Source of the DNA: Octopus vulgaris
Taxonomy: Eukaryota
Direction of reading: 5' to 3'
Length of the DNA: 64,000 nucleotides
Assembly (NCBI GenBank): GCA_951406725.2
Contig: OX597814.1
Span: forward strand, 121,334,001 to 121,398,000
This document shows positions 27,455 to 31,062 of this stretch, in pieces; the first letter of the stretch is position 1; each line of letters starts with the position of its first letter. Made by a program: the position numbers and the translations under genes. The notes under the pieces are model-generated. The model had not been told where the DNA came from, made no database searches, and saw only the letters and a list, made by a program, of their open reading frames with translations.

Positions 27455-28878
27455 CATTAATAGTTCCCTATTAGGTTACTTTAGTTTAGTTTAAATTAGT
27501 TTAGATAATTATATTTATTTGGTTATGTAGTCTAGGCTTTAATTATAGTTAGTCTTTATTGATATTTCTTTGTTTTAATTAGTTCATTTTTAATGTATAT
27601 TAATATAACAGTTTATGGTATGTTAAACTTTAATAATTTATATTAGATTAGATTTTTTTATTTTCTTTAATTATATATTTTTTTAATTTTTTTAATTTTA
27701 TTATGTATTTTTATTATGCATTTGTTATATGTATATTGGAGGATATATTTATATGATAATGGGTGTTATTTAGTGGTGTATATATTGAGTTTTGTATGTA
27801 TGTGTGAATGTTTACGATCCCTTTGTTTTTTATTTGGTATGTTGAATTGACAGATTTTATTTGGGTATTGTTTGTTATAATAAAGTACACACACCCATAA
27901 CAAATATAAGTGCCCACTTCATTCGCGCGTACCTGGAATTGCATGTGAGCCTCAACATATAAACCAAATGGCCACTCCCGGCCCACACGGACAAATAAAC
28001 ACATACATCCCCAAAAATGGGCGCAATCCCACTCTCACCAATCATACATGTATACAATTATTCACACAAGAACAATACATAACTAACCTAAATATACAGA
28101 ACATACCACAAATCACCAACAAACCACCATCACAAATGAAGCCCACACCCATACAATGACAAAACTCCCCCCTCCATACCCAATTTACACCCACATAGCA
28201 ATCCCCATATATTTATCCATACGGACGCACGTGCGCGAAGCACATGCACACAACACATACGTACAACCCCCCAAAACACACTCATATACATACGTATCAA
28301 GCTCGACATCCACGGCAATACGCTCACACCCACTCACACCCAGATGGGTGAACTGCACAACCAAGGAACGCACACACACACGTGTGCGTGTTTTGATTGT
28401 GCAGTTCGCCCATCTGCATGTATGCGGGCGCGAACACACCGTTGCACATATCGAGCCCAACAAGCATGCACATGTACATGTGAGGGGGTACACGCACATG
28501 CCGTGCGCGTATACCCCCCGCACTTATACCCGTGCGTGAATATACACATGGAGACTACCACACAGGTATAAATGTGCATAGCAAAGGGAGCCCCATCACT
28601 ACACTCAATGCATACTCTCACCCATCCGCACGGATGTGGAAGCGAATCACCGGTGTATATATTGAGGCTCATACGTAGCGCTGTGGAGGCGGACGTCGTT
28701 GAAATTGTGAATGTATGGGTGGAGTTGGGAATTGTTACCGGGTGGTGGGCTAGCGTTGCTTAGAATTGGGAATGGAATAGTGTAGTGGAATGGCAGGCAT
28801 CAAAAATAGACGTGGGTTACTGCAAATTGTTTGTTAGAGCTGCCAAGATGAGCTAAGGCTCATAAATGCATATAATAA

Positions 28879-31062
28879 TTTATCATGGTAGTTTTATTAA
28901 AGAATCCATTCATAATAATTTTTTTAAGTAGTGTTGGTTTGCCACGTGGATATAGTTTTTAGTTCCATTTATTCTATTTCTCCATTCATAATTTTAAATG
29001 ACGTTTGCTTTCCATGGCGCGTATTCTTTTTATACATAAGTTATGTTTCTATGGTAACGTAATTTTGGTTTGATTTTTTTAACGGCTTAGAATTTAATTT
29101 CACTTCATAATTTGAAACTGACTTGTAAGTATGTATTTTATTTCTTCTTATGTCATATTGTTATTTTTGATATTCTGGTTAATTACGATGTATTTAATGT
29201 TGTTTTTATTGGAGCGTTTATGTATGTGAGATTGTGTATGAGTGTGTGCGTTTTTTAGTTGTATAATTTATTTATCTGTATGAGTGTGGGTGTGTAAATA
29301 TTGTTGTATATATCGAGTTTAGTGAGTATGTATATGCGTATATGTGAGGGAGTATATGTATCTGTTGTGTGTGTGTGTTTTGCGTGTGTGTGTGTTTGTG
29401 TGTGAATGTGTATATGGGTTTGTTATATAGGTTTGGGGATGTATGTGTTATTTTGTCTGTGTGGGGAGGGAGTGGGTTTTTGGTGTATATTGAAGTTTAT
29501 AAGTTAGTATAGGTATGTGTGAGTGAGGTGGGTATTTGTATAAGTCGTGGGTCTGTGGTTTACGTGTGTGTATTTGTGTGTGAATGTTTAGGTTAGGGGG
29601 ATTGCTATATAGGTTTGTTATAGAGTTAGCAAAGGGAGATTTTATCGTTATATGTTTTTATGAGTTTTGGTTTATCATGGTTTTTTTAGGGAATTCGTGG
29701 TAATTTGTCTATTTACGATGTTTGTTGTTTTATTACATTGTTTCATTCATAATTTTTGAGTGGTGTTCGTTTTGCCACGTGAATATTATTTTTAATTCCA
29801 TTTATTCCATTTCTCCATTCATAATTTTAAAAGATGTTCGTTTCCAGAGCGGGAATACTTTTTATACATATGTTAAGTTCCTTGGTAACGTAATTTTGTT
29901 TGGTGTATATGTTGAGGCTTATATGTACTTGTGGGTGTGTGTGAGTGGGGTGGGTGTTTGTATTTGTTATGGGTGTGTGGTTTACGTGTGTGTATTTGTG
30001 TGTGAATGTATAGGTTAAAGGGATTGCTATATAAGTATGTTATAGGGTTTAGTAAAGGGAGGTTTTATCATTTATGTTTTTGTGAGTTTTAGTTTATCAT
30101 GGTAGTTTTATAAAAGAATCCATTCATAATTTTTTTTAATAATGTTGGTTTACCGCGTGTATATAATTTTTAATTCCATTTATTCTATTTCTCCATTCAT
30201 AATTTTAAGTGAGGTTTGCTTCCATAGCGCGTATTCTTTTTATACATAAGTTATGTTCCTATGGTAACGTAATTTGGTTTGATGTTTTTAACGGATTAGA
30301 ATTTAATTTCACTTCATAATTTGAAACTGACTTGAAAGTATGTATATTATTTCTCCTTATGTCATATTGTTATTTTTGATATTCTGGTTACTTACGATGT
30401 ATTTTATATATCGTATTATGTGTAATAATGTTGTTTTTCTTTGGAGTGTTTATGTATGTGGGATTGTGTGTGAGTGTGTGCGTATTTTGGTTGTGTAGTT
30501 TGTTTATCTGTATGAATGTGGGTGTGTTAATATTGTTGTATATATCGAGTTTGGTGAGTATGTATATGTATATGGTGTGTGTTTTACGTATGTATATTTC
30601 TGTGTGAATGTGTTTATGGGTTTGCTATTTAGGTTTGGGGATGTATGTATTTATTTGTCTGTGTGGGGTTGAGTGGGTTTTTGGAGTATATGTTGAGGTT
30701 TATATGTATGTATAGGTATGTGTAAGTGGGGTGGGTATTTGTATATGTCGTGGGTGTGTGGTTTACGTGTGTGTATTTGTGTGTGAATGTTTAGGTTAGG
30801 GGGATTGCTATATAGGTATGTTATAGAATTTAGTAAAGGGAGATTTTATCATTATATGTTTTTATGAGTTTTGGTTTATCATGGTAGTTTTGTTAAGGAA
30901 TTCGTAGTAATTTGTGTCTATATGCGATGTCTGTTGTTTTATTGCATTGTTTCATTCATAATTTTTAAGTAGTGTTCGTTTTACCAAGTGAATATAATTT
31001 TTATTTCCATTTATTCCATTTCTCCGTTCATAATTTTAAGTGATGTCCGTTTCTAGAGCGGG
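28879..31062 (+). repeat. ~1.2 kb tandem duplication (1.8 units) with internal sub-repeats inside the PLE 3' region
   Basis: TTTATCATGGTAGTTTTAT..AAGAATCCATTCATAAT at ~28879 and ~30093; AGAGCGGGAAT at ~29846 and ~31055. Confidence 0.85.

What the first reader, a model, noticed from the sequence alone, without database searches (positions are those of the whole stretch)
27880..30600. One-directional C/T hypermutation between repeat copies in a retroelement's fold-back 3' region: possible RNA editing written into the genome
Seen: 28382-28480 and 30476-30574 align without gaps over 99 nt (by hand). Of 26 C in the first copy, 22 are T in the second. There are no T-to-C differences, 4 A-to-G, and 1 G-to-A. 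Two of the three retained Cs are in CpG, so ordinary CpG decay does not explain it. Inverted copies (27882-27968 vs 29899-29985; 28280-28380 vs 30476-30570) differ mostly at positions that would form G-U pairs in the + strand RNA. Known: coleoid cephalopods have very extensive ADAR A-to-I editing of dsRNA, and retroelements copy RNA into DNA. Inference, two options: (a) the inverted arm was A-to-G hyper-edited while paired, fixed by reverse transcription, then re-inverted, giving T-to-C; (b) a cytidine deaminase converted C to U on the + strand of the T/G-rich copies. Selection for G-U-softened duplexes that avoid dsRNA sensing could also contribute.
Basis: partly seen in the sequence, partly recalled or inferred. 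Interest (0 to 1): 0.88.

Follow-up and report, generated by a model that had tools for sequence, protein, structure and literature searches.

The report
Retrotransposon repeatedly inherits ADAR RNA edits
A jumping gene in this octopus-like genome carries fold-back segments in which about half of the A letters became G in two successive bursts, with unedited and half-edited forerunners still in the genome, most likely because the RNA-editing enzyme ADAR edited its RNA before it was copied back into DNA, turning normally temporary edits into inherited mutations.

Summary
In detail: 22 C/T, 0 T/C, 4 A/G and 1 G/A over 99 nt. It is a family trait, not an event in this copy.

The direction is the opposite of the title. 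All 22 sites are T in an outgroup copy, so the Cs are derived.

Other genomic copies show four stages:
1. Copies with no fold-back.
2. Copies with a 435-bp sense-strand hairpin carrying A>G at 109/196 and 52/117 As in its two arms, almost no other transitions, and none beyond the duplex.
3. A precursor whose neighbouring segment is unedited (0/103).
4. The window's lineage, where the ~1-kb block is inverted, so old edits read T>C and newly paired arms gain A>G (50/106 at 28678-28879).

Early copies of stage 4 each carry private edits; later ones almost none. The 5' neighbour ranks U>A>C>G, as expected for ADAR.

Best reading: ADAR hyper-editing of a Hydra-type Penelope element's RNA, fixed repeatedly by reverse transcription in the germline. 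The enzyme step is inferred; no RNA-level test was possible. Known analogues are avian retroviral A>G hypermutation and APOBEC-edited LTR elements. This scan noted the same phenomenon before on other DNA of this genome.

The parts
25218..31618 (+). Penelope-like retroelement, 5'-truncated by about 400 nt, between (TA)n tracts
   Evidence: Copies share the ends 25218 and 31618; full units have a tandem 3' piece upstream and inverted 5'-truncated arms; (TA)n at 25136-25221 and 31609-31675
25223..27454 (+). Open RT + GIY-YIG ORF, 743 aa here (841 aa stop-to-stop in L105); DKT 25328, YRDD 26021, CxCx5C 27002, VVY/YIG 27059/27128, CxxC 27320, CxH 27407
   Evidence: 76 homologues at E<=1e-3; no Pfam hit over cut-off; no A>G excess in it
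27455..27882 (+). Unpaired 5' part of the 3' UTR (negative control)
   Evidence: A>G 0/109 against precursor L151
27883..28381 (+). Segments I1+I2: former forward arm of the round-1 hairpin, now inverted; carries round-1 edits as T>C and later A>G
   Evidence: 51 round-1 edits, including 45 of 47 shared sites; later A>G 14/83 and 17/98 against L151
28382..28677 (+).
   Evidence: T>C 53/99 and 12/25 against L074; 54 round-1 edits in 28382-28604, including 48 of 51 shared sites; later A>G only 4/81
28678..28879 (+). Segment I3: ordinary UTR sequence put into inverted orientation, then hyper-edited
   Evidence: A>G 50/106, T>C 0/54, C>T 0/23, G>A 1/19 against L151; unedited in L151 and L112
28880..31060 (+). 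T/G-rich tandem UTR repeats, partner arms of the inverted block; includes the ancestral-type copy 30476-30574
   Evidence: A>G 9/86 in 28880-29200 and 31/276 in 29900-31060, with T>C 0/151 and 1/548; predicted pairing with 27900-28800
31479..31521 (+). Minimal hammerhead-ribozyme motif (CUGANGA...GAAA, stems I-II)
   Evidence: Read from the sequence; the motif is found in 85 of 120 loci with a variable loop II; not found by Rfam nor by the MFE fold

Best explanation
The 3' UTR of this Penelope-like retrotransposon carries bursts of A-to-G change confined to its fold-back arms, most likely made by host ADAR on the element's RNA and fixed in germline DNA by the element's own reverse transcriptase, in more than one round.

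Shown by sequence comparison:
(1) Ancestral copies have only T/G-rich direct repeats.
(2) One lineage gained a near-perfect 435-bp fold-back in the sense strand, and both arms lost about half their As to G in essentially one event.
(3) That edited copy stayed mobile and left several descendants.
(4) A ~1-kb block holding the hairpin plus 200 nt of unedited neighbour was later inverted.
(5) These new duplexes gained A>G: a shared core first, then different extra sites in each early daughter copy, tapering off as the arm approached 50% edited.

Inferred: ADAR as the enzyme; inosine read as G by the RT; germline or early-embryo expression; the inversions arising from fold-back or template switching, or from capture of the head-to-head insertions that Penelope elements make; tapering because I.U/G.U pairs loosen the duplex and use up preferred sites. 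I read the edits as tolerated passengers in a non-coding region, not as an adaptation.
For: Polarity: all 22 sites are T in L116; outgroups L074 and L109 lack the block.
Round 1, against L116: L110 inverted arm A>G 109/196, T>C 1/108, C>T 4/106, G>A 1/25; forward arm A>G 52/117, T>C 1/222, C>T 2/26, G>A 1/132. L111, L113 and L119 are alike. Flanks in L113 show 1/138 and 4/116. Four copies share 99 of 121 and 47 of 57 edited sites. 0 of 9 As beyond the paired part and none of the last 10 As at the loop end are edited.
Precursor: L151 has the block in the old orientation with I3 unedited, 0/103.
Round 2, window against L151: I3 50/106, I1 14/83, I2 part 17/98, partner arms 9/86 and 31/276; unpaired controls 0/109 and 1/147.
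Per-molecule editing: 73 private A>G in 9 basal copies against 27 in 38 later ones, p = 5e-6. The I3 load rises from 33-44 to 45-53 of 103. Internal branches carry A>G 118 against T>C 2 in the block, but 0 against 2 in the ORF.
Context: 5' U 107/205, A 80/182, C 48/185, G 9/45; 5'G depletion p = 0.0065; A/U against C/G p = 6e-9. The 3' A preference in round 1 is 49/70, p = 0.003. PMC5625713 (passages) reports upstream-G depletion and downstream-A enrichment for invertebrate hyper-editing, and octopus among the two strongest hyper-editors.
DNA-level control: 32 head-to-head arm pairs within single loci (27,794 nt) show no bias: A/G 23, G/A 28, C/T 40, T/C 21.
ADAR-family deaminase domains occur at 4 loci of this genome.
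Against: No RNA-level test: no run is on record as RNA, and the runs laid were contigs of a multicopy family.
The unedited perfect hairpin was not found (one exact 19-base pattern, no positive control).
The 5'G effect is modest in round 1 (9/28 still edited). It was not significant with the more distant L074 as reference (11/39, p = 0.39).
Round 2 shows no clear 3' preference.
The control kept only arm pairs at least 93% identical, so it could not have shown a hyper-edited pair.
The block also has raised C>T and A>T rates that ADAR does not explain.
The trees are fast ML trees, and recombination between copies could inflate the counts of 'private' edits.
Confidence: 0.88

Rival explanations
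1. An ADAR-independent A>G mutator tied to copying: the element's RT misreads A while displacing a duplex, or another deaminase acts on the RNA.
For: The changes are fixed at the RT step under any model; no direct test of the enzyme was possible. The round-1 5'G depletion is only partial.
Against: About 50% of As changed with almost no other transition, on both arms, ending at the duplex boundary, with the ADAR neighbour order. A deaminase acting on the cDNA would give T>C on the sense strand, whereas round 1 is A>G on the sense strand in both arms. I recall no RT with this spectrum (own knowledge).
Confidence: 0.07
2. Ordinary mutations filtered or favoured by selection for a G.U-softened RNA duplex, for example to escape dsRNA sensing or DNA palindrome instability.
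For: The sense UTR folds more stably than its complement (-1089 against -729 kcal/mol, 263 against 65 G.U, no shuffles). Both A>G and C>T exceed their complements on later branches.
Against: C>U makes G.U equally well but is 0/23 in I3 and 6/132 in round 1, against A>G 50/106 and 161/313 (p = 6e-6 for 48/103 vs 0/23, and 2e-24). The change is 45-55% while flanks differ at 0-3% of As, far above the background, and most of it is shared as a single event. It may act secondarily on which edited copies survive.
Confidence: 0.03
3. A cytidine deaminase turned C to U in the T/G-rich copies.
For: A slow sense-strand C>T excess exists in the block: 124 events at 283 C sites against G>A 12 at 121 G sites on terminal branches, and 46 against 7 at CpG over all branches.
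Against: All 22 sites are T in the outgroup; stage-1 copies show them as A>G on the other strand.
Confidence: 0.01
4. Assembly or sequencing artefact.
For: Low-complexity (TG)/(CA)-rich repeats; shifted registers still give up to 39 of 99 identities.
Against: The same block with nested, tree-like differences in more than 50 loci; matching contigs in 4 runs of 2 studies.
Confidence: 0.005

Closest known systems
ADAR-linked A-to-G hyper-editing in avian retroviruses (Rous-associated virus 1, Felder 1994; avian leukosis virus, Hajjar and Linial 1995); seen only as cited in passages of PMC8586724, originals not held
   Same: Clustered A>G attributed to ADAR in the RNA of a reverse-transcribing agent, and so recorded in DNA.
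   Different: Here it is an endogenous non-viral retroelement in an invertebrate germline. The edited copies went on to found new subfamilies, editing recurred over successive mobilisations, and unedited and half-edited forerunners survive.
APOBEC 'DNA editing' of LTR retrotransposons (Knisbacher and Levanon, PMC4866542; passages)
   Same: A host deaminase burst is fixed in germline retroelement copies and is found by comparing copies with an ancestral state.
   Different: That is G>A from C>U on cDNA, in vertebrate LTR elements, and absent from the 19 invertebrates screened; the word ADAR does not occur in its main text. Here the change is A>G on the sense RNA strand and limited to duplexes.
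Transcriptome hyper-editing of inverted repeats across Metazoa (Porath et al., PMC5625713; passages)
   Same: Long dsRNA substrate, dense A>G clusters, upstream-G depletion, downstream-A bias in invertebrates; octopus is among the highest.
   Different: Those edits exist only in RNA; here they are in chromosomal DNA and inherited.
Hydra clade of C-terminal EN+ Penelope-like elements (Craig et al., PMC8557442; section 11 and passages)
   Same: RT then GIY-YIG, DKT, CxCx5C linker, no CCHH, CxxC and CxH, hammerhead motif, (TA)n targets, tandem and inverted 5'-truncated insertions.
   Different: Described members are generally under 3 kb; this one is about 6.8 kb with a 4-kb repeat-built UTR. KWK stands where RWK is expected. 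The parts I read mention no editing.

Membership tests
ADAR hyper-editing signature | Single change type, A>G on the transcribed strand | tested here: met
   161/313 A>G against 2/330 T>C, 6/132 C>T, 2/157 G>A in L110; 50/106 against 0, 0, 1 in I3
ADAR hyper-editing signature | Confined to long dsRNA, on both arms | tested here: met
   Both arms edited; 0/9 beyond the paired part; flanks 1/138, 4/116, 0/109, 1/147
ADAR hyper-editing signature | 5' neighbour: G depleted, U/A favoured | tested here: met
   U 0.52, A 0.44, C 0.26, G 0.20; p = 0.0065; 0/12 in round 2; not significant with the distant reference L074
ADAR hyper-editing signature | 3' neighbour preference (A in invertebrates per PMC5625713) | tested here: inconclusive
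   3' A 49/70 in round 1, p = 0.003; no clear preference in round 2
ADAR hyper-editing signature | Level up to about half of the As per molecule, differing between molecules (recalled from the ADAR literature) | tested here: met
   44-57% in round 1; private site sets in 9 basal copies
ADAR hyper-editing signature | Inosine or A>G seen in RNA against matched DNA; dependence on ADAR | not testable with these tools
   Only contigs, none on record as RNA
ADAR hyper-editing signature | Host encodes ADAR-family deaminases | tested here: met
   PF02137 over cut-off at 4 loci; ADAR, ADAD and ADAT1 were not told apart
Penelope-like element, Hydra clade | Single ORF, RT followed by C-terminal GIY-YIG | tested here: met
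   YRDD at aa 267, VVY/YIG at 613/636; by motif, since Pfam gave no hit
Penelope-like element, Hydra clade | DKT, CxCx5C linker, CxxC and CxH, no CCHH | tested here: met
   only one Cys between VVY and YIG
Penelope-like element, Hydra clade | RWK motif | tested here: inconclusive
   No RWK; IKWK in the N-terminus of L105
Penelope-like element, Hydra clade | Hammerhead motif, (TA)n target, tandem and inverted insertions | tested here: met
   ribozyme activity untested, and Rfam did not find it
Penelope-like element, Hydra clade | Placement in the clade by RT phylogeny | not tested
   No named reference proteins in hand
APOBEC DNA editing | G>A on the sense strand in a deaminase motif | tested here: not met
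   G>A 2/157 and 1/19

The most novel reading that the evidence does not exclude
ADAR is the main mutagen of this retroelement's 3' UTR and works as a ratchet that benefits the element. Each fold-back made by Penelope-type inversion is half-converted to G.U in one or a few RNA passages. That leaves a stable RNA duplex that is no longer a DNA palindrome or a perfect dsRNA, so only edited fold-backs survive (none was found unedited), and the lineage bearing them spread. Editing plus re-inversion also builds G+C-rich, CpG-rich islands out of A+T-rich repeats (44% against about 30% G+C): an inherited route from RNA editing to genome composition in coleoids.
Probability: 0.3. Interest if true: 0.92.

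Novelty: new variant of a known kind. Interest (0 to 1): 0.8.

Why it matters
A-to-I editing is normally not inherited. Here the genome keeps a stage-by-stage record, with precursors, of edits passing into germline DNA and being passed on by an element that stayed mobile. It implies ADAR activity on retroelement RNA in octopus germline or early embryo, and shows that the RT copies heavily modified duplex RNA. Each early copy is a single-molecule read-out of hyper-editing. It gives an invertebrate, RNA-level counterpart to APOBEC DNA editing, which a published screen found absent from invertebrate LTR elements. Practically, genomic A/G differences of this kind can confound editing-site calls in cephalopod repeats and distort TE age estimates.

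Tried and rejected
Rfam found only below-threshold miRNA-like matches on microsatellites and no hammerhead; the MFE fold of 31465-31535 did not give the hammerhead (z 0.1). Pfam gave no family over cut-off.

No RNA holder was listed. Reads laid on 27883-29300 were contigs mixing many copies, so A>G (18-20 places in X1-X3, 10 in X18) cannot be told from differences between copies.

An exact-pattern search for an unedited hairpin junction found 0. The 37 exact matches to the I3 junction are a lower bound on copies, since later copies vary there.

The first parsimony run lacked a root for the block, skipped 79 ambiguous columns and mis-polarised some I3 sites; it was redone with stage-1 copies as root. 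In one search I disregarded rows that aligned to a paralogue (I3: L035, L041, L125; F1: L106, L125; I1: L068, L127), and the 'union' lines there are not used. In one search the site rows of L152, L153, L155 and the right half of L158 are not homologous and were ignored. L126 aligned only partly.

CpG decay was rejected: the changes are T>C / A>G. Strand-biased DNA mutation at the source locus was rejected as the cause of the bursts: the ORF and unpaired UTR show none.

Literature: 10 searches listed no paper on ADAR edits fixed in an endogenous retroelement lineage; two searches returned nothing. Subscription journals are mostly missing from the library, the two 1990s retrovirus papers were not held, and I read no supplements.
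Full report
OBSERVATION. The same asymmetry is in the other copies of the family, so it arose in an ancestor.

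THE ELEMENT. The window lies in a 2.8-Gb genome. I take it to be an octopus from its size, its microsatellite load and one named Octopus bimaculoides low-complexity hit; this is inference. The element runs 25218-31618 between (TA)n tracts. It has an RT + GIY-YIG ORF (25223-27454), a 4.1-kb 3' UTR built of T/G-rich direct repeats, and a hammerhead motif at 31479-31521. Its motifs fit the Hydra clade of Penelope-like elements as described in PMC8557442 (section 11); no phylogeny was run. Many copies have open ORFs of 820-860 aa.

POLARITY. Older relatives (L074, L109) have the T/G-rich repeats but not the A/C-rich block 27883-28879. Against L074 the block is a mosaic of inverted and forward pieces of the same UTR, and its differences are nearly all A>G or T>C (78 and 110, against C>T 10 and G>A 16). 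The derived state is therefore C in 28382-28480.

STAGES IN THE GENOME. A search with a basal copy turned up loci where the block lies the other way round.

Stage 0 (L114, L116, L122 and others) has no fold-back.

Stage 1 (L110, L111, L113, L119; L126 partly; L112 as an inverted arm) has a 435-nt inverted duplicate directly before its source, with a loop of a few bases in a (TG)n tract. Against L116, the L110 inverted arm has A>G 109/196, T>C 1/108, C>T 4/106, G>A 1/25, and the forward arm A>G 52/117, T>C 1/222, C>T 2/26, G>A 1/132. The flanks of L113 have 1/138 and 4/116. Four copies share 99 of 121 and 47 of 57 edited sites, so most edits came in one event, and editing stops where pairing stops. 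The hairpin still folds on the sense strand with about 165 G.U pairs (-604 kcal/mol against -225 for the complement in L110, no shuffles).

Stage 1b: a pattern search for the later deletion beside an unedited I3 found one locus. This copy, L151, has the old orientation and I3 with 0 of 103 As changed.

Stage 2 (the window, 46 other copies in the tree, and 8 more) has the block inverted. The window carries 48 of 51 and 45 of 47 shared round-1 edits, now read as T>C. Against L151 it has gained A>G at 50/106 in I3, 14/83 in I1, 17/98 in part of I2, and 9/86 and 31/276 in the downstream partner repeats. F1+F2, which has no good partner on this strand, has 4/81, and the unpaired ends 0/109 and 1/147. 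The MFE fold of 27455-31100 pairs I1-I2 with 29300-30700 and I3 with 28900.

REPEATED, TAPERING EDITING. The nine earliest stage-2 copies share a core of I3 edits, but each has its own extra set (33-44 of 103 As). Later copies carry 45-53 and differ little. Private A>G number 73 in those 9 tips against 27 in the other 38 (p = 5e-6); the window copy has 7. On internal branches the block has 118 A>G and 2 T>C; the ORF has 0 and 2. Tip branches include unsampled source lineages, L035 and L036 are two arms of one locus, and recombination between copies could add false private changes.

ENZYME SIGNATURE. The 5' neighbours of edited As are U 107/205, A 80/182, C 48/185, G 9/45 (5'G p = 0.0065), and 5'G is 0/12 in round 2. 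With the more distant L074 as reference the 5'G effect was not significant. The 3' A bias is seen in round 1 (49/70, p = 0.003) but not in round 2. PMC5625713 (passages) gives upstream-G depletion and downstream-A enrichment for invertebrates, and names octopus as one of the two strongest hyper-editors. The genome has adenosine-deaminase domains at 4 loci. Inverted arms within single loci, which I take to have been made at integration, show no bias over 27,794 nt in 32 pairs (limited to pairs at least 93% identical). So being a DNA palindrome is not enough; a passage through RNA is likely needed.

MECHANISM. Shown: the order of stages, the direction and confinement of the changes, their inheritance and recurrence. 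Inferred: ADAR deaminates A to I in the folded transcript, the element's RT reads I as G, and the copy integrates in the germline and becomes a source. The inversions likely come from fold-back or template switching, or from capture of head-to-head insertions, which are common in this family. I put this at 0.88. RT error (0.07), selection for wobble pairs (0.03), C-to-U (0.01) and artefact (0.005) are weighed under rivals.

WHAT DOES NOT FIT. A slower sense-strand C>T excess runs through the block (terminal branches 124 events at 283 C sites against 12 G>A at 121 G sites; at CpG 46 against 7 over all branches). It is not symmetric CpG decay and not ADAR. Its cause is open. The unedited hairpin was not found, and no RNA-level test was possible.

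COMPARISON AND NOVELTY. It works like the A>G hyper-editing reported for avian retroviruses (seen only as cited in PMC8586724), and it parallels APOBEC DNA editing of vertebrate LTR elements (PMC4866542, passages), which it is not. Ten literature searches listed no report of ADAR edits inherited through an endogenous retroelement lineage; coverage of subscription journals is poor. Earlier notes of this scan describe the same phenomenon in other stretches of this genome; a look-up by this block's sequence found no look-alike. They are unchecked leads, not support. I class it as a new variant of a known kind, interest 0.8. The particular value of this case is the set of surviving intermediates and the tapering series.

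Noticed in passing
window 27888-28879 across 47 copies: Slow sense-strand C>T excess, separate from the A>G bursts, asymmetric even at CpG (46 against 7); A>T is also raised (61 against T>A 12 on tips). Cause unknown.
   Followed up: partly
L035 (lacks 28717-28918), L106 (lacks 28267-28530), L125 (lacks F1-I3 in the main copy): Deletions that remove hairpin tips, as expected if the RT skips folded RNA.
   Followed up: no
L075 7317-8399; L082 8778-9015; L095 5690-8003; L141 3596-8099: Other inverted pairs with one-sided wobble mismatches (37:3, 69:2, 96:8, 63:0) in or beside older and sister-family copies; candidate further editing fossils. Many of the 39 flagged rows in 55 loci are microsatellite artefacts.
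   Followed up: no
window 26440-26760: Asn-rich low-complexity linker of variable length between RT and endonuclease; the ORF stays open across it.
   Followed up: no
window 30135-30645: A 511-nt UTR stretch present in the window's subfamily is missing from many later copies; L061, L067 and L069 have a tandem duplicate starting at 28613.
   Followed up: no
window 31954-32190: A separate ~240-nt dispersed repeat that recurs near several other copies, SINE-like.
   Followed up: no
window 20745-21983; 8675-9064; 15261-15749: Long degenerate (CA/TA) satellite, and two short ORFs that look like retroelement fragments by eye.
   Followed up: no
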